From the IMG/VR virus record IMGVR_UViG_3300024269_000017: DNA of 64,000 nucleotides; one strand, given 5' to 3'. Below the pieces are notes generated by a model. That model worked only from the letters and a program-made list of their open reading frames with translations. It did no database searches and was not told the origin of the DNA. This document shows positions 33,801 to 51,218 of the stretch, piece after piece. Source of the DNA: a virus (lineage: Duplodnaviria; Heunggongvirae; Uroviricota; Caudoviricetes). The translations under genes were made by a program, and so were the position numbers. Position 1 is the first letter of the stretch, and the number at the start of each line of letters is the position of its first letter.

Positions 33801-36255
33801 TAGACATACCTTCAGAAATTAAATTAAATAATTGTTCAATTTCTGCTTTTGTTTTATCCCCAGCAAAAGCTTCTTCTAATGATCCAGCGTTGCCTTTAAT
33901 TTTCGCAACTTGACCATTAATTAATTTACTACCTGTTTCTTGTCCAATTCGTTCTAATTCTTTAGCATATTGCAATAGATCTTTTAGAATTTCAGCATCA
34001 CTACGATTAGATGCAAATAATTCTGGTGCTTCAATTGTTCCAAAAGTTTGTTCAATTTGTTTTCCCATATTTTTAACATCTCCAAAAGCTGTAACCAATG
34101 TCTAAGCAGAAGAAACCGCCTAATCAAATGTTAAATTTTCTAAATCCTTAAAACCTAATTTAGTAAAACTAGAACCAAGCTCTTGTGCAAGCTAAGATAC
34201 GGTTTTTTCAAGTTCTTTAGTGGAAGTAGCATCTGTTGTAAACTTAACTTTAATATCAGCCGCATCCACTAAAAATTTTTTATTTGCTTCTTCTGTAAAT
34301 TTTTTCTTTTCTCGCGCATTTAAATAAGCATAATCCTTATTCTATTTATGAGCTCTAGCTTTAGCTTCTTGACTTACTACTTCATCTACTAATGAAGATT
34401 TTTCTTTTTTCATGTTAGTCTGACGTTTTTGCTCTAATTGCATTAACTCATTTAATGCAGCAATTTGTTCTTGATAAGCTGAAATTACTGCTTTAGCTTG
34501 CGCAATTTGTCCTTCTGACATATTTTTTGATGCAACTAATAATTGATCTTTTTTCTCAGAAACTTTTAAAGCTGCATTAATTTGCATATCTTGTGATGGA
34601 TCTAATACTGAACTATCTTTCTAAATTTTTTGTAACTCTTGACGCATCTGCGCTGAATTTTGTAAAAATCTAGTTTGTTCATTCATTCCAGTAAATGCGT
34701 CTTTAATTTTTGTAGTAATTTTTGTAATACCGTTTGCAATATCATCACTAAAAGCTTGAGTTAATGCACCACCAACAGTTCCGATAATACCAGCGACACC
34801 GCCCATACCATCAATTAAGCCGCCAAGAGTAGTTACAATTTTTTCAATTGCATTAGTCACTCCGACCAAAGCTTTATCATTAATTAAACTACTAAAAATT
34901 TTTTCCCAGGCTGCTTGAACTCTTCTGGATGCTGCCTCCCAAGATTCTGCTGCAATATCTGCCATTTCTTGTAAAGAACCTTCCGCATTTGTTGCAATAG
35001 ACATATTGGACTTATACATAGAAGAATTTTCCATTAAGGCCATCCATTGAGTATATTGTCGTTTACCGGCAATCACTTGTGCTATAGCAGTTTGCTCTGC
35101 TCGTCCCATTTCTCCCCATTTGGCCATTAAATCTTCAATAATTGTTCCCATATCTCTCAATTCGCCGTTAGCATCTAAAATAGATACACCAACTTTTTCT
35201 AATTGAGAAGATACTTGTCCAAGATTTACCCCGTCTTCTAATGTCTCTCCAAGTTTCAAATCACCAATACGAGCAAAAATTGTTTTAAATGCAGTACCAA
35301 TAGATTCTGCGGATTCACGAGTAACAGAACTAACTGTAGCAATAATGGAAGAAACTTGCTCCATTGATACACCAACTGTATTAGAAGTTGCAGCTACTTT
35401 TTGCATAGAAGTTGCAATTTCTTCTAAGCTAGTGGCGGTTTTTGCACCAAGGGCTGCCATAATATCTACATATCGTTCAAGTTCATCAGCACCGACTTGA
35501 TAAGAGTTCCATACTGCAGTTAAATATTCTGACATTTCTTGTGCAGAAGTATTAAAACTTGAATTAGCTGCCTTAATTGTAATTGCTGCTTTTTTAGCTA
35601 CCTATTCTGCACTATCGCCCTATTGAAAATAAATCAAAGATGCATCAGCATATGCTTTAGTGGTTGTAGATAATTCTCTCGCCGCGCGATTAGCCTATAC
35701 AGCAAATCGAGACATATCTTCTGCACTTTGTCCAGTAACAATACGAATATTTGTTAAAGAACTATTTAAATCTTTTACATAGGACACAGCTCCAGATAAT
35801 GCACTTTCTAAACCATGTACCATTGTAGAAGATAATTCCCATTTTACTGTATTTTTTAAAGTCTGTCCCCATGCAGCTAATGTGCTATTCATGCGCTTAA
35901 TTGGTACTTCTGCACTGGCAATAACAGAAGCCAATTGTGAAAAAGCTGCTTGACCAGTTTGTCCTGCATCTAATAAAGCATTGCCTAATTGAGTAACAGA
36001 TGTGCCAGCTTTATTTAAACTATTAACAAATGTGTTAAGATTTAATTCACCAGTATTTACATTAGTAGCCTCTTGTAAATGCTTTTTTAAATCTTGCGCA
36101 GCTTCAGAAGCTTTTTTAAGTGCTGAATCTGAAATTGCTACTTCCAAATCCACAGTTGACACTTTATTTAAGCTTTTTTGTAATTCACTTAAAGCTTTTT
36201 TAGCCTAAGAGGTGTCAGCATTAAATTGTAATGTAAACTATCTGTTTCCAGCCAT
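24880..36255 (-). CDS. tape measure protein, ~3791 codons, dozens of in-frame TAGs
   Basis: 15 ORF-track fragments (24880...36162) all in one frame; coiled-coil-rich sequence, hydrophobic Ala/Gly transmembrane-like segment (33160-34098 fragment), C-terminal Thr-rich region; ATG at 36253-55 after AAGGAGATTG RBS with TAG as codons 6 and 17; TAA stop followed by terminator. Confidence 0.6.
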
Positions 36256-36280
36256 TTACACAATCTCCTTTCTCTCAAAA

Positions 36281-36311
36281 AAGCCTGACACAAATATTGT
36301 GTCAGGCTTTT
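36281..36311 (-). terminator. terminator between chaperone gene and tape measure gene
   Basis: AAGCCTGACAC...GTGTCAGGCTT hairpin flanked by A/T runs. Confidence 0.45.
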
Positions 36312-36344
36312 CTCCTAATCTCTATCAAAGTTTATTTAAATAAA

Positions 36345-36869
36345 TTAACCAATCTTATCAAGAATATCCTTCACTAATCCAATCTTATCAGGTTGATCAA
36401 GTGTTTTCATAATCTCTTCAACATTCAATTTAGTAGCATCATAATCATTAGTTACAGTTTTCATCATTCCAACAAAAGAATTCAAATACTTAACAGTATG
36501 CTCCGCACAATCTTCAATCGCATCAAAAATAGCATCATATTCATCTTCGGGAATTGCAGCAATAACATGATCAAGAACTTCATTAATCATTAATAGATCA
36601 TAAGTATTCGGAGCATTTTCTATCATCTTATCAGTAATAGAAATATTTGTATAAGTTTTTACAATTTCAAGAATTGCATAAACTTCTAAACGAACAGGAT
36701 TCAAAAATCCAGTATCGTCAATAGTCAAATTCAATACTCGCTCAACAAGAGCAAGCTTATCATTTACAGGAAGATACTGAATGACTTCAACTTCCTGTTC
36801 ACCAATCTTAATAGTCTGTGGATCAACCTTCTTAATAGGGGTGACCGCTTTCAAAGAAACTTTAGCCAT
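36345..36869 (-). CDS. tail assembly chaperone-like acidic protein (174 aa)
   Basis: ORF track; lies immediately upstream of tape measure gene; AGGAGAGATTAGC RBS. Confidence 0.5.
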   Translation of the reverse strand: MAKVSLKAVTPIKKVDPQTIKIGEQEVEVIQYLPVNDKLALVERVLNLTIDDTGFLNPVRLEVYAILEIVKTYTNISITDKMIENAPNTYDLLMINEVLDHVIAAIPEDEYDAIFDAIEDCAEHTVKYLNSFVGMMKTVTNDYDATKLNVEEIMKTLDQPDKIGLVKDILDKIG

Positions 36870-36902
36870 GCTAATCTCTCCTTTTTCTCATTTTATGTAT
36901 AT

Positions 36903-36931
36903 ATTATACCAGAAAATTTTTTGTTTGTCAA
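36903..36931 (-). promoter_or_regulatory. sigma70-type promoter (TTGACA-17-TATAAT) reading into chaperone/tape-measure operon
   Basis: minus strand reads acTTGACAaacaaaaaattttctggTATAATatatac; same TTGACAAAC -35 as the early promoters. Confidence 0.5.
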
Positions 36932-37060
36932 GTTAAATCATCGCGTTCGTCCAATCTAATCTAATATACTTTCTAAATCTGCTAATTCAGATTCAATAAG
37001 CTATACAATCTAATTTCGTTTAGGTCCTATTATTGTTGCTGAAAATTGTCGAGCCCAATA

Positions 37061-38215
37061 CTACTTTTCTTCTAAATCCATTTTGGCTTCAAAATCTTTG
37101 ATACGTAATGCAAATTTATATACAGTTTCCATACCCGCCGCGGATGCGCCATTACTCTTTACGCCATAATAAATAGTTTTACCATTAATATCTACTCCGC
37201 CTTCAATATCTTCTGATAAGAAACCTGGAGCATTATCTACTTGATGTAACCATCCTCGTACAAAATCATCAATGCGCTCATCCCAATTGCCATGATTAGG
37301 TTTTAAAAAATCTGGCATAATGTCAACTGGATTTTTTAAATTGGGATTATTCATAAGCCTTGTGCTAAAAGTTACTAAAATATTTGCATAAGTTTCTGCT
37401 AAATCACCTAAAGAGCTGATTTCTACTTTATTCCATTCTCCGCCAATTTTCCACATTAAAAGATTAGTGCCTTTATCTTGCGCAATTTCCATTCTACGAG
37501 ATAACTCATCATAAAATGCGGTTAATTGAGTCCCAATAGTTTCTAAAGCTTTATCTATTAAAGTAAAATGTTTGCCATCTGAATCTTTAATAGTTTTAAC
37601 ACGAGCGGTTGCACGACCACCATGACTCAAAGAAGCAAAGTCTGTATATAAATATTTTTCACTAAATTCTTTTGCATTACCCAATAAACGAATATCCACA
37701 GTGCCTTTTTTACCTTTAACAACATACAAATATTCAATACGTCTATTCACTAAATCTAATAGTGCATTTTGAAACTCATTACGTGCCTATTCAGCAGTTA
37801 ATAATAGTTTATCAATTGTTCTTTGTTTGCCTTCTAATACACGTAACTTTTGTCGCTGTGCTTCTGCTTCTTTTTTTATATTTAATAATTGTTCCATAGC
37901 TTCTCTGCCAGAATCATCCAAAGATAACTCACCAGACTAATATGCTCTAATTGTATTAATACGGATTTTTGCTATACCAGTGCGCTTCTAAGTTTCTGTT
38001 AATTGTGTCATATATTTAGAAGCTATAGCATTATATTCACTCACAGCTGCATCTAATACCTGATAAGCATCTACAAATAATTTAGCTTTTTCGCGTAATA
38101 CCTATCCTTGTATATTATTTTCATCTACTAAAGCGTCAGAAGCTTTTGATAAAATATCAATAATATCATCTGCCGCTTTTTGGGCTGCTTCTGTTATAAA
38201 ACTATATTTTCCCAT
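37061..38215 (-). CDS. ~385-codon tail/coiled-coil protein with 4 in-frame TAGs
   Basis: ORF 37061-37750 extends upstream in frame; hand-stepped 37751-38224 is open except TAG at 37787, 37937, 37988, 38102; ATG after AAGGAGTAATTGACT RBS; TAA directly upstream of ATG. Confidence 0.55.
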
Positions 38216-38228
38216 AGTCAATTACTCC

Positions 38229-38762
38229 TTAAGACAAAGGCTTAATTTGATCTTCTACTCCATGTACGGCATCATAAGTTGCAGACAATCCGCATAATTC
38301 ACTATTCATATTTAAACCAGAACAAATTCTTAATGTAACTTCTCCAATTCCAGTTAGCTTTTGACCATTTAACATAGCATCAATTTCGCCCATAATTTTA
38401 TAAGGACGTAAAGCAAAATCACCAAGATTCCAGTGATCTGGATGACATAAAACTTTAATTTCAATTGCACAATCTCTAAATTCAGGATTAGTGTCATTTG
38501 GCATAAAATCAGTCATAGATACAATAATATAATTAGGACATTCTTTATCAATAAAAATCCAAGGCACAATTTTAATTTGCTTATTGATCATAGACAATTT
38601 TTGTGCCATGGTTAAATTTTCTGCTTTTAAACAATCTTTTTCAGTATAATAAAGCAGTTTACATAATCTATCATTGTTTAGAATTTTATTAATAATGATC
38701 GATAAATCTTTATCTACAGATAAAAAACTGGATTTTGGGAAAAAATTTTGTCCGACTTTCAT
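38229..38762 (-). CDS. hypothetical tail/neck protein (177 aa)
   Basis: ORF track; no TAG. Confidence 0.6.
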   Translation of the reverse strand: MKVGQNFFPKSSFLSVDKDLSIIINKILNNDRLCKLLYYTEKDCLKAENLTMAQKLSMINKQIKIVPWIFIDKECPNYIIVSMTDFMPNDTNPEFRDCAIEIKVLCHPDHWNLGDFALRPYKIMGEIDAMLNGQKLTGIGEVTLRICSGLNMNSELCGLSATYDAVHGVEDQIKPLS

Positions 38763-38789
38763 ATATCATTCTCCTTTTTCGCAAATAAA

Positions 38790-38832
38790 AAAAAGGGAGA
38801 TACTAACCGAAGTTAGTATCTCCCTATATTGT
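38790..38832 (-). terminator. strong rho-independent terminator after 38845-39777 gene
   Basis: GGGAGATACTAAC-TTCG-GTTAGTATCTCCC hairpin followed on minus strand by TTTTTTTA. Confidence 0.7.
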
Positions 38833-38844
38833 CATAGTATTAAA

Positions 38845-39777
38845 TTATTCTTGTGCTTCATCCAACTGACCGAAGATACCAGCATCTTCAACGATCTGAA
38901 GAGCAGCAATAACCTTCTTGGTCTTGTCAAACTTGGTATAATCCGGGAAAGCATCCATGGTAAAGGTGAAGGTGGAAGGATCACCGGTAGGAGCCATGGT
39001 GAAGGTGAAGTTAGACTGAACCTTGCAGTTTGGAATAATGAACTCTGCAGGGAAGTCATCACCAGTTGCCTGATCACGGAACAAGGTAGAAGCTTCAAGA
39101 TAGTAAGAACCACCGAACTTACCAGCTTCAATATCAATCTGCTTTACGCCCTTAGCAGCTTCGATGTAGTAGTCAACATAAAGAATGTCGCCTTCTGCAA
39201 CAGTAGGAGCGTTCTGAGTGGGTAGCTTCAATTCAATATGACGAGCATCCTGATTGTAAGCGGTAGCCCAGTTATCAAGAACATCCTGAATAACCATTTC
39301 TGCACCAATATCAGTAGAAGCAATCTGCATAGGTAGCTTAGAAGCATCAATAGAGCCGTCCTCAGTCATGAGCATGATATACATTTCACCCTGATTAGAA
39401 GGCTTCTTCTCAAGCTTAACCTTTAGAGCGCCACCATCATTAACAACTTCCAACTGTTCGGTAGCATGAACATAAATCTTCTCATCATCAGAAGCATCCA
39501 TGAAACCAGCACCAGAAAGAATGGAGAAGCTCTCAGGAGAAATCAAAGCATCTTCCATAGTAAAGGTTACAACGCGGTCGCCTTCCCAAGCTACCAAGCG
39601 AGGATTACCTTTACCACCCTGAGCATAAACAGTAGTAGCAGTACCTTCAAGACTGGAAGTCTTCAAGGTATCGAAATAAAGAACAGGCATGTTCTTATCC
39701 AAATAAAGCTTACCGAAATAACCGCCGGCCTTCTTCTTTAGCACAACGTCACAAATTTCGCGTACACCAAATTTCAT
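38845..39777 (-). CDS. abundant structural protein, major tail (tube)-like (310 aa)
   Basis: ORF track; GGAGGAAAAAACC RBS; higher GC and codon bias than neighbours; strong terminator downstream; no TAG. Confidence 0.6.
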   Translation of the reverse strand: MKFGVREICDVVLKKKAGGYFGKLYLDKNMPVLYFDTLKTSSLEGTATTVYAQGGKGNPRLVAWEGDRVVTFTMEDALISPESFSILSGAGFMDASDDEKIYVHATEQLEVVNDGGALKVKLEKKPSNQGEMYIMLMTEDGSIDASKLPMQIASTDIGAEMVIQDVLDNWATAYNQDARHIELKLPTQNAPTVAEGDILYVDYYIEAAKGVKQIDIEAGKFGGSYYLEASTLFRDQATGDDFPAEFIIPNCKVQSNFTFTMAPTGDPSTFTFTMDAFPDYTKFDKTKKVIAALQIVEDAGIFGQLDEAQE

Positions 39778-39802
39778 AGGTTTTTTCCTCCTTAAAATTC
39801 AA

Positions 39803-40549
39803 TTAATGGATATTTTTCATCCAATCATTGGGCTTGCCATCGGGTTTACCTCCGGCCAAGCGAGACCGTATGTCTAAATCCCAACTAATCCATAAGCCAT
39901 ATCGTTCAATTAAATCATATAGCTAATAAACAGTTAGATCTAAACACTTATCTAGACTCATTGAATTTAATCCAATAGTAAGAATAGATACATAACGAGC
40001 TAACACGCTTCCTTCCCCTTCTCCTCGTAGCTGGGCTGCTCTCTAACGACCTTTCATTAGCTTGGCCGCAATTTGAGCGGCTCGCTCATTAGCAGGGTTG
40101 AAATTAGAATTCTATCCACCCGCAGTATTATTCATACCAGCCATATTTGTTAATACAGCCTAAAAAGCATCAAAATTATTTTCATCTAAAACAAAGTGGT
40201 GCTAAGTTTCAGCATTATTAAAATAGATGCTATGAGGAAGAAATTGAGCGGTATACCCAGGAAAAAGTAATACAAACATTGAAATCATTGCATTTCGTTT
40301 TTCATTTACGTTTTTCATTTCTGGGTCTGTTACCAACGTCATAAATATCTAAAAATTATTCATAGCCTATAGAGCAGAACTGCCCTATGGGTTTGCAGCT
40401 ATGATTATCTATTTATTGAAGCATAGTATTTGTAACGATGAAAAATACTATTCTTCGCCTAAGAAAGAAATTTCTCTAATAGTTGGCTAATGTAAACTTG
40501 TACCTAATTCTGGAATTGGGATATCGGTTCCAGCCATTAACTGCAACAT
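39803..40549 (-). CDS. 249-codon structural gene with 11 in-frame TAG codons
   Basis: hand-stepped every codon: ATG 40547-49 after GAGGGAGGGG RBS; TAGs at 40487, 40448, 40409, 40385, 40367, 40349, 40202, 40160, 40112, 40043, 39923; no TAA/TGA until TAA at 39803-05, which sits just before the RBS of the next gene. Confidence 0.6.
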
Positions 40550-40564
40550 GCATACCCCTCCCTC

Positions 40565-41509
40565 TTAAAACAGCGATTCAACAACAACTGTTTTTACAAG
40601 AGGTCCATAATGAATTTCAAATTGTCCACTAACCATCGCGGTCCATTGAACAGTTAACACATTTTTATCTGTGCTCCAAGTTAATACATCAGCAACCTCT
40701 TTATTATCAGAAGCTAACGTAATATACCAATAGCAATCGGGATCAATAAGATTAGAGGTATAAGATACACTTTGCAAAGGTTTAATAAATGTTTCTCCAG
40801 AAATTTGCGGCGCCAATGGTGCCTCAACCTCTTTATTGGGATCAACAACCTCTACAAGCAATTCATCATGATGACAATCATAATCTTCTTCTGCAGTCAC
40901 TTCCAATACTCCTGGTGTACTAATAGCATCAGGAGCTTGCACCATCCAAGTGCGTCCCGCAAATGAAAATCTACAGTAGCGCTCAAATAATTGTCGATTT
41001 TTTTCTGTATTTGGTACATAAAAAACTAATGACATATTCGGCACATCTGCAACAATACCAGCCTTTTGAATTGTATTAATTTTAGTTTCAACTGGTCCTC
41101 TAATTGAGCCATAGATTGTTAATTTATCTCCAGTGTCTGGATCTTCTACTTCAATCTCTTGGCATCGTCTAATATTGCCCCTAAAGTAGGCTAACTCCGT
41201 TAACTCTTGTTTAAGAATAATCCAATGGATATGAGAATCCTTTGGCCATTCAAAAGTATCACCCGGCTTAAAGTCATGTTTCCAATCGACCGATACAATT
41301 TTTTCATCATAGTCAAATTTCACTTTATCCGGATTGATTAATGCCCTACACCATTCAGCATCTTCTGCATCTTTTCTAATCCAACCAGATTGATAAGAAT
41401 ACAAAAGTGCACGATGAAAAGAGCGTTCTTTATCTCGAATCATGCGCTCACGCTGGCGATCATTATTCGCGTAAATCGCACGAATTCGCATTCTATCTAA
41501 ATTATCCAT
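40565..41509 (-). CDS. head-tail region structural protein (314 aa)
   Basis: ORF track; TAA stop. Confidence 0.65.
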   Translation of the reverse strand: MDNLDRMRIRAIYANNDRQRERMIRDKERSFHRALLYSYQSGWIRKDAEDAEWCRALINPDKVKFDYDEKIVSVDWKHDFKPGDTFEWPKDSHIHWIILKQELTELAYFRGNIRRCQEIEVEDPDTGDKLTIYGSIRGPVETKINTIQKAGIVADVPNMSLVFYVPNTEKNRQLFERYCRFSFAGRTWMVQAPDAISTPGVLEVTAEEDYDCHHDELLVEVVDPNKEVEAPLAPQISGETFIKPLQSVSYTSNLIDPDCYWYITLASDNKEVADVLTWSTDKNVLTVQWTAMVSGQFEIHYGPLVKTVVVESLF

Positions 41510-41792
41510 CCAATAAAGAGTTAGCTAATTCAGTTAATAAAGAAATAGAACTAAATACAGCTACTCTATATGTCATAAAATCTGTGGTCTGCGGCAAACC
41601 TTCTAATTTCGATAAAAGAATTAAAAGATTCAATTGATCGCCAAACATTGCCTATAGACCATACAATTCATTCAAAACAGAGCCTAATTGCTTTTGCCAA
41701 TCCTCATTATTTTCTCGCATTGGTAGCAATTTCCAAACTTGGTTTATTAAACGTCTTAAATCTTTATTGAGAGTTTCATTAGAAAAAATCAT
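41502..41792 (-). CDS. small head-tail protein (~96 aa) with one in-frame TAG
   Basis: ATG after GGGAGGCAATTGGAAA RBS; open to TAA that overlaps the start of the 40565-41509 gene; too fragmented for the ORF track. Confidence 0.35.
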
Positions 41793-42148
41793 TTTCCAAT
41801 TGCCTCCCATCCCCACATATCATCACAGTTACAATCTTCTGTGTTAGAAGTTTTATCACTAGTGATTGGGATCCAGTCTGGATCATCGCAATCGCAATTA
41901 ATATTGCCATTTACATTAGAACCAGTACCAGTACCCACTGTTGTGGAAGTGGTAGCACCTCCATCAAATACACTTTGTCTGAAGATACTCCAATTAGATT
42001 CAATTCTACCATCACTGGTATTTCTACGACGTTTATATAAACGTTGTGCGTGAGTTGACTCACGCACATTCTCTGATTTTAATTGTAATAGTTTAGATAA
42101 ATGATTGGCTTGAGAAGTCATTTTGAAGTCTGAACCAGAATACTTCAT
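41789..42148 (-). CDS. hypothetical head-tail connector-region protein (119 aa)
   Basis: ORF track. Confidence 0.5.
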   Translation of the reverse strand: MKYSGSDFKMTSQANHLSKLLQLKSENVRESTHAQRLYKRRRNTSDGRIESNWSIFRQSVFDGGATTSTTVGTGTGSNVNGNINCDCDDPDWIPITSDKTSNTEDCNCDDMWGWEAIGK

Positions 42149-42172
42149 TCGAGTATTCTCAATAGAATTGAT

Positions 42173-42427
42173 CTATCGCTCAAGCCAAGCAGTTTTCATC
42201 AAAAGAGCTAAAATATGAATTTCTTCAATCGTTAGATCGACATTATACTGTTCCAGCTCTTCGTCGTAGTTATACAATTGAAAACGAGGAAATTCAAAAA
42301 ATGGGATGGCATCCAATAGAAACTGTTTTACATCACGCAAAGTATCTTCATAGGTCAACTCAAGATACATATCATCTGTAATCTTGCCGAAGAATCTATT
42401 ATAGATAGTTTCAAAGGATGTTGCCAT
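42173..42427 (-). CDS. hypothetical small protein (84 aa)
   Basis: ORF track. Confidence 0.5.
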   Translation of the reverse strand: MATSFETIYNRFFGKITDDMYLELTYEDTLRDVKQFLLDAIPFFEFPRFQLYNYDEELEQYNVDLTIEEIHILALLMKTAWLER

Positions 42428-42430
42428 TGA

Positions 42431-43021
42431 TTACGCCTCCTGCTTTGGAGTGACTACCTTATACTGCGGGACTGCGGTACGACGGCCAGTAGCAGGCTGT
42501 GCTTCCTCAGTCTTCACACGACGCACAGGAGTAATTGCTTCGGCTTTCACGCCAGACTCTTCTTCCTCTGCCTTGCGAGCTTCTTCCAAATGCTTAATCG
42601 CTGCGGTTACGTCGAAGCCCATCTTTTCTTTGATAGCTTCACGCTTACGATTATCATTTACTGGAAGTGCCACAGCGTGCTTCTTAATTAAATCAAGCAC
42701 GCCTTCGGGAGCAAAATCCAAACAATCTAAGAATGCATCAATAGAACCTTTTTCAAGTAGATCAATAACACCCTTTTCATCCAAATAATATTCAGGCTCA
42801 ACTTTTACAGACATTTCTTGTAGAGCGGACTCATCCTGAACAAATAGATGCTTGCGAATTAGATTCATGCCGCCGGGCAAATAAGACAGAGCATTTAGTT
42901 CGTCCATAGAAATGGTTTTTACTTCGTTGGGAGCAAACTCGCGACGAACACCCATTTCCGGCACACTGTATACAACCATAGAACTACTTCTATTCTTTAC
43001 AGAAACTTTCTTATCACTCAT
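42431..43021 (-). CDS. hypothetical protein (196 aa), possible head completion/DNA-packaging protein
   Basis: ORF track; directly downstream of capsid gene. Confidence 0.5.
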   Translation of the reverse strand: MSDKKVSVKNRSSSMVVYSVPEMGVRREFAPNEVKTISMDELNALSYLPGGMNLIRKHLFVQDESALQEMSVKVEPEYYLDEKGVIDLLEKGSIDAFLDCLDFAPEGVLDLIKKHAVALPVNDNRKREAIKEKMGFDVTAAIKHLEEARKAEEEESGVKAEAITPVRRVKTEEAQPATGRRTAVPQYKVVTPKQEA

Positions 43022-43039
43022 ATTTTAAAACTCCTTTTA

Positions 43040-43068
43040 CTCAAAAATGGGGAGGGAGTGATCCCTCC
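43040..43068 (-). terminator. terminator after major capsid gene
   Basis: GGGGAGGGAGTGATCCCTCCCC hairpin with T-run on minus strand. Confidence 0.5.
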
Positions 43069-43085
43069 CCGATATATTTATTTAA

Positions 43086-44132
43086 TTAACCAGAAACCTT
43101 GTCACCATCATAAACCTTGGTATCCAAGGAGTTGTTTACATAAACGCAAATGTCAGGAGTCATAACGACGCCAACGCCAACCTTCTTGTAAACCTGGATT
43201 TCACGGCTACGATCCTTGTTAACATACTCGTCAACAATGGTAGCACCTTCCATAACAACCTTAGCTGGCTTTACAGAACCAGGTAGGATGTAGCAATGGG
43301 AAGGATCAATAACCTTCTCGGTATGAGTAGCATCAGTGAAACCTTGTGGAAGAATAACAACAGGATGATTCTTATAAGAAGCAAAGCGACCATTATTCCA
43401 GATAACATCCTTCATGTTGTCAGACCACATATTAGCATTCTCAGGACGAATGGTGCTAGCAAACTCCTCAGTGCAGTAGATGGTAGGAGTACCATAAGCT
43501 GCAGCAATAGAAATAAGACGATCGAATGCCTTCTCGTCGAAAGCAGAAGCCTCAACCTTATTCATGGTTGGAAGCTGATTCAAACCAGTCTTAAGAGCCT
43601 GACCGATCTCCCAGTAAATAAGCTCGTCCATGCCGTCCATAACGATCTTGGTAACTTCAGCAAAATCAGCACGACCATCAAGGAACTCCTCAAGACCGAT
43701 CTGAGCTGCGCCACCAATAGCGCTGGTCTGCATTTCGATAGCAGTATCCTTACCAAGCTTAAAGACTTCGTAGATACCTGCAAGTCCGACCTTGGTAATA
43801 AACTGCTTAGCACGCTGACGATCATGGTGACGATGGAAGATAGCCTTATCGCCCTGACCAATGGTCTTGATCTCAGCAAACTGACCATAGTTTTCCATAA
43901 CCTTCTTAGGAAGTACTTCATCCATAGTCTGCTCAATTAGAGCAAAAATCAAATTCTTATTCTCACGATACTGAGCGAAAGTGCCAGCATACTCGTTGAG
44001 TTCACGGCGAAGAGTCTCATTAAGAGCATCATAAGTCAAATTCTCGCCGTTAAAGCTGTAAGCAACCGGAGCGGAGCGATCAGCTTTAGCAGTAGCCTTC
44101 ATAAGCTTCAAAAGTTCATTTCTTTCTAACAT
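43086..44132 (-). CDS. major capsid protein (HK97-fold-like, 348 aa)
   Basis: ORF track; follows protease/scaffold genes; codon-biased; terminator downstream; no TAG. Confidence 0.6.
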   Translation of the reverse strand: MLERNELLKLMKATAKADRSAPVAYSFNGENLTYDALNETLRRELNEYAGTFAQYRENKNLIFALIEQTMDEVLPKKVMENYGQFAEIKTIGQGDKAIFHRHHDRQRAKQFITKVGLAGIYEVFKLGKDTAIEMQTSAIGGAAQIGLEEFLDGRADFAEVTKIVMDGMDELIYWEIGQALKTGLNQLPTMNKVEASAFDEKAFDRLISIAAAYGTPTIYCTEEFASTIRPENANMWSDNMKDVIWNNGRFASYKNHPVVILPQGFTDATHTEKVIDPSHCYILPGSVKPAKVVMEGATIVDEYVNKDRSREIQVYKKVGVGVVMTPDICVYVNNSLDTKVYDGDKVSG

Positions 44133-44155
44133 AGCTAGTTTCTCTCCTTTCCGAA

Positions 44156-44860
44156 TTACTGAATACGCATGACCTTAACGGCCTTCTGCATATCGCCTAA
44201 ATTGTATACCTTAACAACCTGCCACAACATGCCGGACTCAGCCTCGGTCTTAGCCAAGTAGCCCTTTGCATTAGGAGCAAGAATGTCACCAAGAGCAAGA
44301 GTTTCCTCTGCAACACAGTTAGTAGTAAAGATGTCGCCCTCATGAGTCTTGAATAGACGAGGAGTCATCATACCCTGAACATCAGAAAGTAGCTGAGGCT
44401 GATTTAGATTCTCAATCTCATAGGACTGACCAATCTTCAAATGCATACGACCAAAGTCATCAGCAGCACCCTCATCAGTATAACCAGCAGCATAAACATC
44501 GGTCTCAGCACCGATAGTCTTCATCTGGTTGTCAACATCGCCCTTAGCGCCAACTGGGCTATAAACATAACCATTGTAGTCACGAGCGATCATAGCGAAG
44601 TCCTGGTCGGTCTCCCATGGAGCATAGACCTTAACTTCATTGAAGATAAGCATCCATTCGCCCTTACCTTCAAAATCAACAGTACCATTTACATAGTTGT
44701 ACTTAGCAAACTGACCATTCTCTAGGATCTTGATATCCTTATGAGCAGGCAACTGAGCATAAATTTCACCAGTGCGCTGTGCGGAGAGATGGTTAGGCTC
44801 AACCTGACCGAAGCCATAAGTTACATACTTAGCTTCAGGAGATAATCTTTTAAAAGCCAT
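44156..44860 (-). CDS. head protein (decoration or scaffold-like, 234 aa)
   Basis: ORF track; between protease/scaffold and capsid genes. Confidence 0.5.
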   Translation of the reverse strand: MAFKRLSPEAKYVTYGFGQVEPNHLSAQRTGEIYAQLPAHKDIKILENGQFAKYNYVNGTVDFEGKGEWMLIFNEVKVYAPWETDQDFAMIARDYNGYVYSPVGAKGDVDNQMKTIGAETDVYAAGYTDEGAADDFGRMHLKIGQSYEIENLNQPQLLSDVQGMMTPRLFKTHEGDIFTTNCVAEETLALGDILAPNAKGYLAKTEAESGMLWQVVKVYNLGDMQKAVKVMRIQ

Positions 44861-44886
44861 TTTTTAGCTCCTCCTTTGATATCTAA

Positions 44887-46296
44887 TTACATAGTTTTGG
44901 CAGTCTCACGCACGGCCTTAATCCAGGCTGGTGCATTGTCATTGCCATCGTCGTTGTCACCAAGGGAATAAACCATTGGATCCTGTTTTTCGGGTTCTTG
45001 TTTATCGTTATCAAGGCTGAAATTAACCTTGTTACGAACACAAATAATAGAAAGCTTGGCTTCAATATCATCCAAGGAATAGTTGTCAATATTAGCAACA
45101 ACATCAGCCTTGTCAGTTTCAGTCAACATATAGAAGCCATCAATCATAGCCTGCTTTTCCTTACGATCAGCAGTGGCCTTAAACTCACGAAGTGGAGCGA
45201 TTTCCTTCTCAAGAGAAGCACACTTTACTTCGAGAGCAGCATAATTCTTGGCGAGCTCAACATATTCTGGAATCTCTTCAAGATTATACTTCTTTTCTTT
45301 ATTGCAAGAGCATTCAGACGCAGGTTTTCCGCACTTCGGGCACTTCTTGTCATCCTCGTCCTCTTCTTCATCATCGGACTTGGCGAACTTCTTCTTACCC
45401 TTCTTCTTCTTGTCCTCGTCTTCGTCTTCATCCTCCTCAGACTCTTCAGATTCCTTCTTATCCTCTGAATCATCTTCGTCCTTCTTTGGAGGGAATGGAG
45501 GCTTTTTCTCTTCTTTCTTTTCCTCTTCCTCGTCGGGCTTCTTCTTGAACTCAGTCTCTTCGGCTGAATTCTCGATATTCTGCTCCTCCTCAGTCATAGG
45601 GGTCTTAATATCCTCATTCATTTGAGTTTTTCCTCCTTCTTGTAAAGCTGTTTGTAATTCTTTAATCATGGAGAACAATTGTTCCTTGAACTCTCCATCA
45701 ATAGAGAACTGCGAAGCGATACCCGCTCCCTCAAAGCAAGGTTCGACGTTCTCTCCAAGAATACACAATTTTTGGATAATTGCTTCATTGATAATGAAAA
45801 ACTTAGGCATTCCATTATCGTCTGTTGTCCACTTCCCTTTTGTAAGTTTATTATGAAGTTCCATGGACTGATTATTCCCCTTCTCAATGATACGCTTAGC
45901 CTCTGGGTACACATCATCCCAAATATAACCTTCAGTCATAAGGTACTCATGCTCAACACCATCATCTAAGAATTTCTGGAACCAGACTTTTGCTCCCAAA
46001 TCAACGAAACCATATGGTCGAGTGGTATCAATAATATCAAACTTACCATTTGAAACATCAATCATACGATTATGCTCTTCAAAATCACCAGTAGCCTCAT
46101 TAAAAAAACCAACAATAGGGCAACCTGGCAATGACTTCGCCATATCAGTGGCAACAGCCTTGGTAATTACACTGTGGTTTCTATTGGGATCTTCTCCCAC
46201 ATAACACACTTTAATCTGACACTTAGAGATTAAAGGGTTAACAGGAGTGAAGTTAAGCAATTCAACAGTAGCTTCAACTGGAACACTAATATGCAT
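44887..46296 (-). CDS. prohead protease fused to Glu/Lys-rich scaffold-like domain with Cys4 motif (469 aa)
   Basis: ORF track; long EEKKEEKK / DEDED low-complexity region; CPKCGKPASECSC; GGAGGAAGTTAAATA RBS; no TAG. Confidence 0.55.
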   Translation of the reverse strand: MHISVPVEATVELLNFTPVNPLISKCQIKVCYVGEDPNRNHSVITKAVATDMAKSLPGCPIVGFFNEATGDFEEHNRMIDVSNGKFDIIDTTRPYGFVDLGAKVWFQKFLDDGVEHEYLMTEGYIWDDVYPEAKRIIEKGNNQSMELHNKLTKGKWTTDDNGMPKFFIINEAIIQKLCILGENVEPCFEGAGIASQFSIDGEFKEQLFSMIKELQTALQEGGKTQMNEDIKTPMTEEEQNIENSAEETEFKKKPDEEEEKKEEKKPPFPPKKDEDDSEDKKESEESEEDEDEDEDKKKKGKKKFAKSDDEEEDEDDKKCPKCGKPASECSCNKEKKYNLEEIPEYVELAKNYAALEVKCASLEKEIAPLREFKATADRKEKQAMIDGFYMLTETDKADVVANIDNYSLDDIEAKLSIICVRNKVNFSLDNDKQEPEKQDPMVYSLGDNDDGNDNAPAWIKAVRETAKTM

Positions 46297-46311
46297 TATT
46301 TAACTTCCTCC

Positions 46312-47919
46312 TTAATTAGCAGATTCCTTATTCTAAATAGTTTTTTCAGATTTCTGTCCATCTGGTTTTTCAGGACGACCGCCTTTATTTTCAGAGGAAG
46401 AACCTGTCTAAGAACTTTGAGCTTTCTTCTAAGCCTTCTATCCTAAGATGTCCTCACCATTCATTGTAGAACTCATAATCGGTGGGATCATAATTTCATA
46501 CAAGTGCAATACTTCATTTTCAAAGTGTGCAGTAGCAATAATAGCACTTTGAGAATGACCCATCGCAATCTGCGGTAGCATCTTGGAGTAACCAATCTGC
46601 ACTTGTTCCTTATACATCTTCGCAAGCTCGATGTAGTTGTAGACTGTCGTCTCCAACATATACACTCTAAAGTTATACTTCTTCTTACCGGGGAACTTGT
46701 GACGAACGATCTTGTTTAACATATTACCAAACTGTAGAATCAAATTGCGCATTGAAGCCTCATCATTTAAGATAGACTTTTCAAGAGCAATATTACCATC
46801 TGTATTAAACAAGTTCTAAGAAACACCAAATTGGTTATACAAAGTTCTTTCAACCTTTTCCAAATCATCGGTAGAGGTTGTAGTATTTTTATCCGCCAAG
46901 TCCGCAACAGAGGTATCCGCAAATGTAGTCATAACGTCTACACCAACCGCACGCTTCAACATCTGAACCGCATTGTTGTGAATATCTTTTGCTTCATCAA
47001 CGTCAAAAATCAAATCACCATTCTTATCAAGAGGAAGTTTCTGAATTACAATTTTCAACAATTTCTGCATGGTCTTGCGACGGTCTAAATCCTGCGCTGC
47101 ATCCAAATCCAAAATCGCGGGAATCGCATTTGCAAGAATTGGATAGTCACTACCATTCAGATTTAATTTAATCGCACAAGCGGGATCAAGTAAATACCAC
47201 CCAGCTTGAGAGCCAGATTCATCTTTAAGTTTGCCTTTCTTGTATAAAACATAACCTTTGGCAAACTCTTCTGGGAACATCTTTAAAATTCTAAGTCGCT
47301 GTTCAATAGTTGGGAACTTATCATCAAAGAACTTCATATTGAACTCAACGGCCGGCGAATCGCCAACCATATAACGACTGCGACAATAAGCAACTGGCAA
47401 TTCCTGCAAGGTCATGCCATTAGTGGTATCTACAATATAACCATAGTAGCAACCATTCTTAATAACCTAAAGGGCTACATTGCCGCACATGTATTTAATA
47501 TTTGAGTTATCTAAATAATTAAGAACCTTAGAAAACTCACTTAGAATTTTTTCTTCCTTGATAGAATCATCTTCAACATATGGAACAACATACCAGTCAT
47601 ATCTATACAAAAATGCAAAATATTTGCATAGACGTTCATAGATACCACTTACCTCATAGAAGTAATTTGATATTTCACGCAAGGTGTTATAATCCTTAGT
47701 AGCTAATGCGCGTAAAACCGCATTCTTGTCACCATATGTACGATTGGTCTTTTTTAAAGCACCCAAATCTAAAATAGCATCATCAAGGGTTTGTAGACCA
47801 ATACGAATCTTGCTAAAATCAAGTGGCTCATTATTTTCCGGATCAATATAATCAATATCCCTGCGAGGCGGAGTTAATGCAAAACCTTTAGCACGGATTT
47901 CATCCTATCTTCTTCGCAA
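46312..47919 (-). CDS. portal protein (~535 codons) with >=8 in-frame TAGs; TTG start
   Basis: fragments 46438-46812, 46816-47415, 47467-47766 share one frame; hand-stepped ends: TTG at 47917-19 after AAGGAGG RBS with TAG as codon 5; C-terminal TAGs at 46438, 46429, 46408, 46333; TAA at 46312-14. Confidence 0.55.
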
Positions 47920-47932
47920 CCGTCACACCTCC

Positions 47933-48289
47933 TTAATAGCCAGCCTTTGTCATAATATAATCATAAGTAATAAGATTCTCTTCTGTATACGGAATTTCAA
48001 CTAATGGGATTTCCTTTAATGCACAAAAACGACGTTTCTTGTTATCATTGAACTACTGTTGATAAAAACCTTTTGTTCCACCAAATTTACTTGATGGTTC
48101 ATAATGTTGTTTACCTTGATATTCAATAAGGAAATCAATATTTCCATCATCGTCAAATACACAAAAGTCAAACCGCAAAGGACGACCATTCGGGCTATTT
48201 AAACCCTCAAATGATTGTTCCATTGTGAACCGCAATCCCGCCTCTTCCAGAATCTCTTGAATCTTGATTTCTCCACGAGACGCTCTCAT
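47933..48289 (-). CDS. free-standing DUF559/Vsr-like endonuclease-domain protein (~118 aa), one in-frame TAG at 48053
   Basis: FDFxVFD...IEYQGKQH...EIPLVEIPY motif pattern of the DUF559 PD-(D/E)xK family; GGGAGG RBS; sits between terminase and portal, a typical homing-endonuclease position; paralogous to C-terminus of 53149-53925. Confidence 0.5.
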
Positions 48290-48301
48290 AATGGACCTCC
48301 C

Positions 48302-50044: not shown

Positions 50045-50045
50045 A

Positions 50046-51218
50046 TTATTCCTCCTTTAACATTTCCATCATCGTTAAGGCATCATCTTCAGCCTCTTGT
50101 TCTAAGAATTCATAGTGTTCGGCAAAGTCATCATCTTTCAATTCATCAAGAGAATCCATATCCATAATTTCATCTTCATCATCAATATCTTCATCTTCTT
50201 CGCGTTCGGCTTCGCGCTGCAATGCCTTAACCGCAGATTCGATAAGATTACCAAGATTCATCTCTTCAGTAACAAGAGTGTTAGTGTAGCCACGCAAGTC
50301 CGCAAGAGTTTCATCAACTCTATCCTTCGGCTTGTCGGTATAGAAACGAGGAATAAATCCCTCTTCTTTTTCACATAATAAAACCAGTTCAGAAATTGAG
50401 TTAACAAACTCGCCAGCCTCAGCCTTATTCTGAACCGCAGTAAATTTAGCGGATTTCATCAAAGCGTCATAAACCTTAGACATCTTTTGGAAACCTTCGA
50501 TGTCGCCCAAGTCAATCAGTTGATGAGCCTTGATTGAAGTTTTACAAATAAGCTTTAAATAGTCTTCATGAGATGGAGTCTGAATATCGAACGATTGCAT
50601 CATCTCTTGATAATACTTCTCTAACTGAACCCATTCATACGGTTTGTAGGTCTTGCCCCACTTAATCGCCAAGTAAGTTTTATCTTCTTCAGTTAGATCA
50701 TCTTCGAATCCCACTGGCTCAAAGGCATCAATCGGAGCAGGCTCCTCTCGTGTTGCTTCTAGTTCAGCGGGTCTTTCAGGTGTCCTGTTTGCGGCGAGAG
50801 CTTCCTCAATCTCTTCTCCAGTATAGCCTTGTCGAGCCATAACGTCTCGCTTCCGCGCATCCATTTCAGCCTTAATCTTTTCAGTATCTTCCCATGAATA
50901 ATTTTTGTATTGATTCAATTTCATTTTGGAAAGGTAACGACCCAAGATGGTCATACCAGTAACCTTGGTGCGGTCCTTGCCATAACGTTCAAGTAGAGTA
51001 TTCCATTCCTCTTCAATATAAGGAACATTGATCTCTTCCAAAATCCATAAATAAGTTTTCGGATTCCAATTGTCTACATGTCGAGTGATGCATTTCTTAC
51101 ATTCAGGTAATTTACCATCGTCGGGGTATCTATCCAACCGATTAGATGTGTAAAATTGATCAGTATCCATCGTTCGACCGCAGACCTTACAATAATAAGT
51201 TTTATTTAAGTCTGCCAT
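50046..51218 (-). CDS. Zn-ribbon protein with acidic C-terminus, possible terminase small subunit (390 aa)
   Basis: ORF track; CxxC...CxxC near N-terminus; immediately upstream of large terminase. Confidence 0.35.
   Translation of the reverse strand: MADLNKTYYCKVCGRTMDTDQFYTSNRLDRYPDDGKLPECKKCITRHVDNWNPKTYLWILEEINVPYIEEEWNTLLERYGKDRTKVTGMTILGRYLSKMKLNQYKNYSWEDTEKIKAEMDARKRDVMARQGYTGEEIEEALAANRTPERPAELEATREEPAPIDAFEPVGFEDDLTEEDKTYLAIKWGKTYKPYEWVQLEKYYQEMMQSFDIQTPSHEDYLKLICKTSIKAHQLIDLGDIEGFQKMSKVYDALMKSAKFTAVQNKAEAGEFVNSISELVLLCEKEEGFIPRFYTDKPKDRVDETLADLRGYTNTLVTEEMNLGNLIESAVKALQREAEREEDEDIDDEDEIMDMDSLDELKDDDFAEHYEFLEQEAEDDALTMMEMLKEE

What the first reader, a model, noticed from the sequence alone, without database searches (positions are those of the whole stretch)
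39803..40549. Extreme case: one 249-codon gene carries 11 in-frame TAGs (4.4% of codons) and no other stop
I stepped every codon. ATG at 40547-49 sits behind a GAGGGAGGGG RBS, TAA at 39803-05 abuts the next gene's RBS, and the only interruptions are 11 TAG codons. In AT-rich random sequence a stop would appear about every 20 codons. An open 249-codon frame with TAG as the only stop is very non-random. It makes this gene the cleanest test locus for the recoding hypothesis.
Basis: seen in the sequence. Interest (0 to 1): 0.7.

Follow-up and report, generated by a model that had tools for sequence, protein, structure and literature searches.

The report
Amber-recoded phage tail-module gene
This is an intact, conserved phage structural-module gene in which the 11 "stop" TAG codons are read as glutamine by a suppressor tRNA encoded elsewhere in the phage genome: a clear but ordinary example of the known "genetic code 15" recoding of gut and rumen phages.

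Summary
Window 39803-40549 (minus strand) is a 249-codon frame with 11 in-frame TAGs, no internal TAA or TGA, a GAGGGAGGGG ribosome-binding site and a TAA stop. An independent assembly carries the identical gene.

The recoding interpretation is supported. The product is a full-length member of a conserved siphovirus family (PHROG 4051, Pfam YomV_2nd) under strong purifying selection (dN/dS 0.04). In relatives with no in-frame TAG, the window's TAG positions align to Gln as often as ordinary CAA/CAG positions do (45.5% against 48.5%). They do not align to Ser, Leu, Tyr, Trp or Lys.

TAG is never a terminator in about 92 genes of this phage. It is a sense codon almost only in the late structural module.

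The window has no tRNA. A contig 99.99% identical to the window over 17.8 kb carries a 27-tRNA array, roughly 60-65 kb beyond the window's right end, that includes a tRNA(CUA).

This is TAG-to-Gln recoding as already described for crAss-like, Lak, "gemstone" and phAss-1 phages, here in an undescribed ~168 kb lineage.

Two local peculiarities:
- 69% of this gene's Gln codons are TAG, against 14% in the other late genes.
- The suppressor tRNA has an unusual long variable arm.

The parts
39803..40549 (-). YomV-like (PHROG 4051 / Pfam PF27211 YomV_2nd) conserved siphovirus protein of unknown function, 248 aa. It has 11 TAG codons read as Gln and a TAA stop.
40487..40489 (-). TAG codon 21. The column is Gln (CAA/CAG) or TAG in 54 of 59 other distinct homologues.
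40448..40450 (-). TAG codon 34 (variable acidic column: D/E/K in relatives)
40409..40411 (-). TAG codon 47 (variable polar column)
40385..40387 (-). TAG codon 55 (E/K/Q column; TAG in 17 other homologues)
40367..40369 (-). TAG codon 61 (variable column)
40349..40351 (-). TAG codon 67 (36 CAA/CAG, 19 TAG, 4 Glu in relatives)
40202..40204 (-). TAG codon 116 (variable E/K/D column)
40160..40162 (-). TAG codon 130 (40 Gln, 7 TAG, 12 K/R in relatives)
40112..40114 (-). TAG codon 146 (CAG in L001-L004; D/Q column)
40043..40045 (-). TAG codon 169 (29 Gln, 11 TAG in relatives)
39923..39925 (-). TAG codon 209. This is an invariant Gln column: 45 CAA/CAG and 14 TAG, with nothing else. It is CAG in the 93%-identical relative L005.
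40555..40564 (-). Shine-Dalgarno-like GAGGGAGGGG, 5 nt upstream of the ATG and directly after the TAA of the upstream gene
504..52294 (-). Late/structural module (GC about 35%) in code 15, with 104 in-frame TAGs in 15 of 27 genes. TAG-containing genes include the tape-measure protein 24880-36255 (42 TAG), 18766-24759 (18), 36938-38221 (8), the portal-like gene 46312-47919 (7) and the terminase-like gene 48302-50044 (2). TAG-free genes are the tube 38845-39777, the YonB-like putative capsid gene 43086-44132, 44156-44860, 44887-46296, and the distal tail/fibre-like genes 504-12152 (function inferred from position and weak PHROG hits).
52386..63572 (+). Divergent module of 17 small genes read as early genes (from orientation and gene size). 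GC is about 49%. There is no in-frame TAG and no TAG terminator (15 TGA, 2 TAA), so it is readable in the standard code.

Best explanation
The window is part of a ~168 kb siphovirus-like phage genome related to SPbeta in its structural genes. Its late module is written in genetic code 15 (TAG = glutamine).

The gene at 39803-40549 encodes an intact 248-aa YomV-like protein of the head-tail/tail module. Its biochemical role is unknown. Its 11 TAGs are decoded as Gln by a phage-encoded tRNA with anticodon CUA. That tRNA sits in a 27-tRNA array outside the window.

Before the tRNA has accumulated, host release factor 1 would terminate translation at codon 21. The protein can therefore be made only once the phage has switched the cell to amber suppression.

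Most probably, the number of TAGs also lowers the yield per mRNA. This would fit a protein needed in few copies, whereas the tube and the putative capsid proteins contain no TAG at all.

Shown here:
- the intact conserved ORF;
- TAG = Gln by comparison with relatives;
- TAG never used as a terminator;
- TAG confined to the late module;
- tRNA(CUA) present in the same genome.

Inferred:
- charging of that tRNA with Gln;
- the timing and attenuation role;
- the copy number of the protein.
For: 1. The read-through protein matches PHROG 4051 over positions 8-245 of 247 (E 4.9e-33). It has 1339 homologues, which carry Pfam YomV_2nd.

2. Synteny is conserved: a 314-aa gene, YomV, the YomU tube gene, YomW, and so on to the tape-measure gene.

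3. dN/dS is 0.04 against L005 (18 synonymous, 3 non-synonymous differences). The C-terminal region beyond the last TAG is the most conserved part of the protein.

4. A codon-level alignment of 60 distinct homologous genes shows TAG paired with Gln codons 11-fold above background. TAG+CAA+CAG stays roughly constant (about 10-22 per gene) while TAG ranges from 0 to 11.

5. A non-circular test used only relatives with zero in-frame TAG. Window TAG positions from the late genes with orthologues in the related loci align to Q in 45.5% of 297 cases. The baseline for CAA/CAG positions is 48.5%. The other candidates fall far short of their own baselines: S 9% (47%), L 0.7% (61%), Y 0.3% (73%), W 0% (63%), K 4.7% (61%).

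6. No gene ends in TAG: 27 late and 17 early window genes, plus 48 genes in flanking loci. Relatives fall into two classes. One has 0% TAG and uses TAG as a terminator. The other has 8-41% of Gln positions as TAG.

7. Contig ena:ERZ27248314:k141_1461088 is 99.989% identical to window 1-17817. It carries a tRNA(CUA) at L237:17564-17654. The same tRNA is found syntenically in three related contigs, and the L235 copy scores 53 bits on Rfam tRNA.

8. The distant relative phAss-1 is published as TAG-to-Gln recoded with tRNA-Sup-CTA (PMC10607447). The late-gene bias is the published pattern (bioRxiv 10.1101/2021.08.26.457843).
Against: No tRNA or Rfam match exists in the window itself or within 10 kb on either side. 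The link to the suppressor therefore rests on a near-identical contig, not on the window.

The tRNA(CUA) does not look like a plain tRNA-Gln. It has an 18-nt insertion forming a long, tRNA-Leu-like variable arm. Its charging with Gln is thus inferred only from protein comparisons and from its acceptor features (G73, G2:C71, G3:C70, unpaired A1/C72).

There is no protein-level evidence.

No release-factor or aminoacyl-tRNA-synthetase family appears in the precomputed Pfam annotations of the flanking loci (about 44 kb). Most window proteins were not screened for such families, and about 60 kb of the genome was not seen at all.

The attenuation idea is confounded. The TAG-free genes are also richer in GC and in CAG. 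Family-wide, YomV (26% TAG) is no more TAG-rich than its neighbours (24-29%). The 69% seen here could therefore be drift.
Confidence: 0.9

Rival explanations
1. TAG is read through, but as an amino acid other than glutamine. The candidates are leucine or serine (the suppressor has a class-II-like long variable arm) or pyrrolysine (ARAGORN labels the tRNA 'Pyl').
For: The tRNA(CUA) has an 18-nt variable-region insertion. The 3' half of that insertion (AAGGCGTAAG) is identical to the one in the phage's own tRNA-Leu(UAG), and tRNA-Leu(UAG) is its best overall match in the array (77%). LeuRS and SerRS do not read the anticodon (established knowledge).
Against: At the window's TAG positions, standard-code relatives have L in 0.7%, S in 9% and K in 4.7% of cases. 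Self-conservation baselines for those residues are 47-61%. Q is 45.5% against a baseline of 48.5%.

Invariant Gln columns (codon 209, and largely codons 21 and 67) hold only CAA/CAG/TAG.

The discriminator base is G73, not the A73 that LeuRS requires (established knowledge). The variable arm is the short 3-bp Leu type, not the longer Ser type.

The tRNA shows none of the tRNA-Pyl hallmarks (very short variable loop, 6-bp anticodon stem). No pyl genes are listed in the loci examined.
Confidence: 0.05
2. The ORF is a decaying pseudogene, or the TAGs are assembly or sequencing errors. On this reading no full-length protein is made.
For: Under the standard code the frame is broken 11 times. GenBank and UniProt annotations of relatives show fragments: the phAss-1 homologue is split into 3 CDS, and the BFVD hit A0A8S5T6P2 is a 151-aa fragment.
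Against: Only TAG interrupts the frame, never TAA or TGA (P about 8e-7). dN/dS is 0.04. The C-terminal 40 residues beyond the last TAG are nearly invariant across the family. The identical sequence occurs in an independent assembly. TAG positions are shared across diverged relatives.
Confidence: 0.01
3. The recoding is real, but the exceptional TAG density of this one gene has no function. It would be mutational drift in an AT-rich, weakly expressed gene: CAG, GAG or AAG changing to TAG once TAG had become a neutral synonym of CAA/CAG.
For: Six of the 11 TAGs lie in variable polar columns (D/E/K/S/N in relatives), one base change away from GAG or AAG. Family-wide, YomV's TAG share (26%) equals that of its neighbours (24%, 25%, 29%). 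YomV homologues range from 0 to 11 TAGs with no change in the protein.
Against: TAG share differs strongly between genes (chi-square p = 2e-10). It is reproducibly 1% or less in the tube, YonB-like and 44156-44860 families across 79-83 loci. Selection therefore acts on TAG use at least in some genes.
Confidence: 0.45

Closest known systems
Genetic code 15 (TAG to Gln) recoding in uncultivated gut and rumen phages: crAss-like, Lak, and the Garnet/Amethyst/Agate/Topaz clades (Borges et al., bioRxiv 10.1101/2021.08.26.457843; Peters et al., PMC9523058)
   Same: In-frame TAG is concentrated in structural/late genes. The divergent module read as early is free of TAG. A suppressor tRNA(CUA) is encoded by the phage. 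The genetic code varies among close relatives of one clade. TAG is absent as a terminator.
   Different: This is a different, SPbeta-like siphovirus lineage of ~168-175 kb. No megablast match exists among 50,697 GenBank phages. No release factor 2 was seen in the parts examined. The suppressor tRNA has a long variable arm. Membership of a named clade such as Agate (154 +/- 27 kb) could not be tested.
Phage phAss-1 (OQ749652; proposed genus Phassvirus; Babkin et al. 2023, PMC10607447)
   Same: It has a homologue of this very gene (32% identity over 98% of the query), likewise interrupted by TAGs and split into three CDS in GenBank. It carries a large tRNA array with tRNA-Sup-CTA. TAG = Gln was inferred in the same way.
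   Different: The relationship is distant: 136 kb against ~168 kb, and 32% identity. Its CUA tRNA is of normal length (77 nt), against 91 nt with an extra arm here.
Bacillus subtilis prophage SPbeta structural module (YonG, YonD, YonB, YomV, YomU, YomW, YomO Pfam families)
   Same: The same protein families occur in a similar module. The target gene belongs to the YomV_2nd family and sits next to the YomU tube gene.
   Different: SPbeta uses the standard code (established knowledge). Local gene order differs: YomV-YomU-YomW here, against the alphabetical order expected from the SPbeta gene names (from memory, not checked). The function of YomV is not established.
E. coli amber suppressors charged by GlnRS (supE tRNA-Gln(CUA); su+7 tRNA-Trp(CUA) mischarged with Gln). 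This is recalled from the classical literature and is a lead only.
   Same: A CUA anticodon (U35) combined with G73, G2:C71, G3:C70 and a weak or unpaired 1:72 pair. These are the features known to favour GlnRS.
   Different: Those suppressors are class I tRNAs with short variable loops. Many Bacillota make Gln-tRNA by the GluRS/GatCAB route instead. The host here is unknown.

Membership tests
Code-15 (TAG to Gln) recoded phage | Multiple in-frame TAGs in otherwise intact, conserved ORFs, with no in-frame TAA or TGA | tested here: met
   The target has 11 TAGs. The 27 late genes hold 104 TAGs with no TAA or TGA inside them.
Code-15 (TAG to Gln) recoded phage | TAG positions correspond to glutamine in homologues that use the standard code | tested here: met
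   Q at 45.5% of TAG positions, against a 48.5% baseline for CAA/CAG. All other residues fall far below their own baselines. TAG pairs with Gln codons 11-fold above background, and there are invariant Q columns.
Code-15 (TAG to Gln) recoded phage | TAG is not used as a terminator | tested here: met
   0 of 44 window genes and 0 of 48 genes in flanking loci end in TAG. Relatives with 0% sense TAG do use TAG as a terminator.
Code-15 (TAG to Gln) recoded phage | Phage-encoded suppressor tRNA with anticodon CUA | tested here: met
   Not in the window. Present at L237:17564-17654 on a contig 99.989% identical to window 1-17817. The L235 copy, which differs by 1 nt, scores 53 bits on Rfam tRNA.
Code-15 (TAG to Gln) recoded phage | Recoded codons enriched in late/structural genes and absent from early genes | tested here: met
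   Late module: 104 TAGs. The 17 genes of the divergent module: 0. The 48 non-structural genes in L088 and L237: 1.
Code-15 (TAG to Gln) recoded phage | Gln actually incorporated at UAG (peptide evidence), and the suppressor tRNA charged with Gln | not testable with these tools
   This needs mass spectrometry or aminoacylation assays. Only sequence features are available here: G73, G2:C71, G3:C70, unpaired A1/C72.
Code-15 (TAG to Gln) recoded phage | Accessory code-change genes (RF2, GlnRS), present in some members only and so not strictly defining | tested here: inconclusive
   No such family appears in the precomputed Pfam annotations of the flanking loci. Most window proteins were not screened for them, and about 60 kb of the genome was not examined.
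YomV_2nd (Pfam PF27211) / PHROG 4051 | Significant full-length match to the family profile | tested here: met
   PHROG 4051 at E 4.9e-33, covering profile positions 8-245 of 247. All 120 listed homologues carry precomputed PF27211, including P0001, which differs from the window protein by 3 residues. The local Pfam-A copy gave no hit, so the Pfam assignment rests on the precomputed annotation.
Pyrrolysine (TAG to Pyl) decoding | tRNA-Pyl architecture (3-nt variable loop, 6-bp anticodon stem) together with pylS and pylBCD genes | tested here: not met
   The CUA tRNA has a 5-bp anticodon stem and a variable region of about 20 nt. No pyl-related Pfam family is listed in the loci. TAG positions align to Gln.
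Named clade 'Agate' of Borges et al. | Phylogenetic placement (terminase tree) among TAG-recoded phages of ~154 kb | not tested
   Reference sequences of that clade were not available in the tools. Only genome size and recoding type are compatible.

The most novel reading that the evidence does not exclude
The phage may decode UAG as glutamine with a structurally atypical suppressor. The tRNA is 91 nt long. It has a tRNA-Leu-like long variable arm, a tRNA-Gln-like D-arm, an unpaired A1/C72 and G73. It may be a chimera that evolved to be charged with Gln while differing from the host's tRNA-Gln.

The phage may also use the number of TAGs per gene as a dial for protein stoichiometry and timing. 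The tube and putative capsid genes have 0 TAGs. The YomV-like gene has 11 in 248 codons.
Probability: 0.25. Interest if true: 0.55.

Novelty: new member of a known kind. Interest (0 to 1): 0.3.

Why it matters
It matters first for annotation. Under the standard code this gene, the 3791-aa tape-measure gene and about a dozen other late genes break into fragments, as has already happened to relatives in GenBank and UniProt.

Biologically it adds an SPbeta-like ~168 kb siphovirus lineage to the phages that switch the infected cell to amber suppression. In this lineage, sister genomes use either the standard code or code 15.

The gene is a convenient reporter. It is short, it has 11 UAGs, and the cognate suppressor tRNA is now located. 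It could be used to test experimentally how efficient phage-driven suppression is, and whether UAG density tunes expression.

None of this overturns current understanding.

Tried and rejected
**Function of the protein**
- The local Pfam-A copy gave no hit for the target or its neighbours.
- A PDB sequence search found nothing meaningful.
- The afdb50 library was unavailable.
- The capsid role of the YonB-like gene was not confirmed: no PDB hit, and its PHROG family is of unknown function.

**Closest relatives**
- Megablast of 10 kb of the window against GenBank phages found no match.
- The search for related loci with the single Q-substituted protein found nothing in IMG/VR. The alignment-based scan worked.

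**Search for the suppressor tRNA**
- ARAGORN and Rfam on the window found nothing, even at E<=1. The same held for 43 relatives' structural loci and for the 10-kb flanks.
- An exact anticodon-arm search in IMG/VR found nothing.
- The one metagenome scan returned only a 2.4-kb contig.
- Walking by exact-protein look-ups finally reached the array.

**Other**
P0001 and the neighbouring tube gene were used instead.
- Host assignment from GTDB genomes gave only hits in metagenome bins (Lachnospiraceae, Erysipelotrichia, Muribaculaceae and others) that are probably mis-binned phage contigs. The host is undetermined.

**Explanations rejected**
- Pseudogene.
- Sequencing error.
- Pyl, Ser, Leu, Tyr, Trp or Lys decoding of TAG.

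Full report
**1. The observation**

On the minus strand, window 40549 to 39803 reads ATG, then 247 further codons, then TAA. TAG occurs at codons 21, 34, 47, 55, 61, 67, 116, 130, 146, 169 and 209. There is no internal TAA or TGA.

The start codon follows GAGGGAGGGG by 5 nt, and that motif directly follows the TAA of the upstream gene. The gene's own TAA is followed by AAGGAGG and the ATG of the next gene.

From the base composition of this strand, a stop is expected every ~13 codons. The chance of 248 codons without TAA or TGA is about 8e-7, and none of 20000 shuffles achieved it. The other five frames of the same stretch hold 6-19 TAA+TGA each.

It is not a sequencing error. An independent ENA assembly carries the identical 747 nt. 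A relative 93% identical in DNA keeps 10 of the 11 TAGs.

**2. Context**

Positions 1-52300 form one minus-strand operon-like block of phage late genes with GC near 35%. When TAG is read through, the block resolves into 27 tightly packed genes. Most end in TAA; two end in TGA.

The public collection annotates the orthologues with SPbeta-named Pfam families: YonG_N, YonD_N, YonB, YomV_2nd, YomU_Tube, YomW, YomO and PhageMin_Tail. The block therefore runs from a terminase-like gene and a portal-like gene, through head genes, to the YomV-like gene, the tube gene, a 3791-aa tape-measure gene and distal tail/fibre-like genes. The terminase, portal, capsid and fibre labels rest on position, size and weak PHROG hits, not on a direct family match.

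The target gene lies immediately upstream of the tube gene.

From 52386 onward, 17 small genes run on the plus strand. Their GC is about 49%, their stops are mostly TGA, and none contains a TAG. I read this divergent block as the early module, from its orientation and gene size.

**3. Is the read-through product a real protein?**

- With TAG read as Q, the protein matches PHROG 4051 end to end (E 4.9e-33).
- A search with X at the 11 positions found 1339 homologues. Most are 240-260 aa, and all 120 listed carry PF27211.
- The most conserved segment of the family, RLAGGKPDxKPxDWMKNIH together with the helices before it, lies downstream of the last TAG.
- Against the closest relative there are 18 synonymous and 3 non-synonymous differences, giving dN/dS 0.04.

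A pseudogene is excluded.

**4. Which amino acid does TAG encode?**

The database proteins had themselves been called with TAG = Q: the look-ups report 'translates_to_query: no'. I therefore went to the DNA.

In 60 distinct homologous genes, TAG+CAA+CAG stays roughly constant (about 10-22 per gene) while TAG ranges from 0 to 11. Columns that contain TAG pair with Gln codons 11-fold above background. Codon 209 is an invariant column holding 45 CAA/CAG and 14 TAG and nothing else. Codons 21, 67, 130 and 169 are similar.

The cleanest test uses only relatives with no in-frame TAG at all (see section 5). Across the window's late genes that have orthologues in those loci, TAG positions align to Q in 45.5% of 297 cases. 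Ordinary CAA/CAG positions align to Q in 48.5%. The alternatives fail against their own baselines:

| Residue | At TAG positions | Own baseline |
|---|---|---|
| Q | 45.5% | 48.5% |
| S | 9% | 47% |
| L | 0.7% | 61% |
| Y | 0.3% | 73% |
| W | 0% | 63% |
| K | 4.7% | 61% |

TAG means glutamine.

**5. Genome-wide pattern**

No gene ends in TAG. This holds for 44 window genes and for 48 genes in flanking loci of the same phage. Those 48 non-structural genes contain a single in-frame TAG, against 273 CAA/CAG.

Among 86 related loci there are two classes:
- 0% TAG at Gln positions, with TAG usually seen as a terminator;
- 8-41% TAG, with TAG as an apparent terminator in only a few cases.

The code therefore varies within the family, as reported for other recoded clades.

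Within the window, TAG use is strongly heterogeneous (chi-square p = 2e-10):
- The target has 11 of 16 Gln positions as TAG (69%). The other late genes have 93 of 677 (14%; Fisher p = 1.2e-6).
- The tube gene, the YonB-like putative capsid gene, 44156-44860, 44887-46296 and the distal tail/fibre-like genes (504-12152) have none.
- The tube, YonB-like and 44156-44860 genes are also richer in GC (43-44%) and use CAG rather than CAA.

Across the family, the tube, YonB-like and 44156-44860 families stay at 1% TAG or less. YomV, its 314-aa neighbour, YomW, the portal-like and the terminase-like families run at 19-29%. Avoidance in those three families is therefore systematic. The 69% in this particular gene is a lineage-specific extreme.

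**6. The decoder**

The window has no tRNA and no Rfam match, even at E<=1. Neither do the 10-kb flanks.

I walked rightwards by exact-protein look-ups and reached contig ena:ERZ27248314:k141_1461088 (167,964 bp). This contig also carries the window's exact 2437-aa protein and is 99.989% identical to window 1-17817.

Its segment 116,684-136,968 (locus L237) holds 27 tRNA genes. One of them has anticodon CUA, at L237:17564-17654. By contig coordinates, that is roughly 60-65 kb beyond the window's right end.

The same 91-nt tRNA sits at the syntenic place, downstream of tRNA-Cys and directly upstream of tRNA-Gly(UCC), in three related contigs. Two copies are identical to it and one differs by 1 nt. 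The L235 copy scores 53 bits on Rfam tRNA. A promoter-like TTGATT-17-TATAAT with an extended -10 lies 40 nt upstream (a consensus match only).

The tRNA is unusual:
- It has an 18-nt insertion in the variable region.
- The 3' half of that insertion equals the one in the phage's tRNA-Leu(UAG).
- Its D-arm resembles that of the phage's tRNA-Gln(CUG).
- Position 1:72 is an A/C mismatch, and the discriminator base is G73.

G73, G2:C71, G3:C70, a weak 1:72 pair and U35 are the classical GlnRS identity elements. GlnRS is a class I synthetase, and class I enzymes leave the variable region facing solvent. Both points are established knowledge that I did not test here. Charging with Gln is therefore plausible but inferred. 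ARAGORN's label 'Pyl' is only its default name for a CUA anticodon.

**7. Mechanism**

Shown:
- an intact conserved gene;
- TAG = Gln;
- TAG confined to the late module;
- a tRNA(CUA) in the same genome.

Inferred, following the published model: in the uninfected or early-infected cell, RF1 terminates at codon 21. Once the tRNA array is expressed, UAG is suppressed and the late proteins, including this one, are completed.

More speculative: each UAG costs some yield, so 11 UAGs would hold the protein at low copy number, while the tube and putative capsid proteins avoid UAG. The rival reading is drift after TAG became a synonym of CAA/CAG, and I rate it about equally likely for the density itself. 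Six of the 11 TAGs lie in variable polar columns, one mutation away from GAG or AAG.

**8. Function of the protein**

**9. Comparison with what is known, and novelty**

TAG-to-Gln recoding of phage late genes with phage suppressor tRNAs is established:
- Borges et al. (preprint 10.1101/2021.08.26.457843);
- metaproteomic validation (PMC9523058);
- phAss-1, a distant relative that carries a TAG-interrupted homologue of this very gene (PMC10607447).

NCBI taxonomy already has a 'Caudoviricetes code 15 clade'.

This lineage has no close relative among GenBank phages, but it is common in metagenome assemblies as contigs of 168-176 kb. The finding is thus a new member of a known kind. The long-armed suppressor tRNA is the only element that may be a new variant, and it lies outside the window.

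Noticed in passing
L237:17564-17654 (contig ena:ERZ27248314:k141_1461088, the window's own phage); also L235:19489-19579, L239 and L240:11189-11279: The tRNA(CUA) is 91 nt long, with an 18-nt insertion forming a long variable arm. The 3' half of the insertion (AAGGCGTAAG) equals that of the phage's tRNA-Leu(UAG), while the D-arm resembles tRNA-Gln(CUG). It also has an A1/C72 mismatch and G73. The sequence is identical or differs by 1 nt across four contigs, so covariation could not be assessed. A hairpin (CCCCTAT/ATAGGGG) overlaps the 5' acceptor strand, and a promoter-like site lies 40 nt upstream.
   Followed up: partly
window 52300 junction; 1-52300 against 52386-64000: GC jumps from about 35% (late genes, TAA stops, CAA-rich) to about 49% (divergent small-gene module, TGA stops, CAG-rich) within one phage genome. 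AT skew also rises to +0.15. The junction is spanned by an independent contig (ERZ27248457 k141_453581, loci L244 and L087), so it is not a chimera.
   Followed up: partly
window 38845-39777, 42431-43021, 43086-44132, 44156-44860: The tube gene, the YonB-like putative capsid gene and two neighbours have zero TAG, GC of 43-44%, and almost exclusively CAG for Gln (for example 13 CAG and 0 CAA). They form a codon-usage island inside the AT-rich late operon. TAG avoidance in these families (1% or less for three of them, 3% for 42431-43021) holds across 79-83 related loci.
   Followed up: partly
window 504-12152: The four distal tail/fibre-like genes contain no TAG among 123 Gln codons, although the genes just upstream do. 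They include a 2437-aa protein with LRR_5 repeats. Three of the four have GC of 39-42%. This is compatible with recent acquisition from standard-code phages or with host-range cassette exchange.
   Followed up: no
window 24880-36255: A very large tape-measure-like gene of 3791 codons with 42 in-frame TAGs. Orthologues in relatives reach 4710-4758 aa.
   Followed up: no
L237:10694-19319; L239 and L240:2245-16800: The tRNA array has 27-30 genes. It is interspersed with several small PDDEXK_5 ORFs (possible homing-endonuclease-like genes) and sits next to auxiliary genes: a FolD-like gene, a CitMHS transporter, chorismate mutase, ThiF and a glycosyltransferase.
   Followed up: no
L095:20107-20177; L239:16724-16800; L240:16182-16258: ARAGORN could not name these tRNA-like genes (odd anticodon loops, reported as 'tt' and 'ga'). 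The one in L095 has the loop ATTTAAG, which could be read as anticodon UUA (matching TAA).
   Followed up: no
L092:41983-42750 (phAss-1, OQ749652); BFVD A0A8S5T6P2: Public annotations of homologues are truncated or split because the standard code was applied. The phAss-1 homologue is three separate 'hypothetical protein' CDS. A 151-aa UniProt entry is 62% identical to part of this protein.
   Followed up: partly
window about 60488-60766 (+): One of the small plus-strand genes carries a MazE_antitoxin (SpoVT/AbrB-like) domain, according to the collection's precomputed Pfam hits (L087:7324-7602).
   Followed up: no
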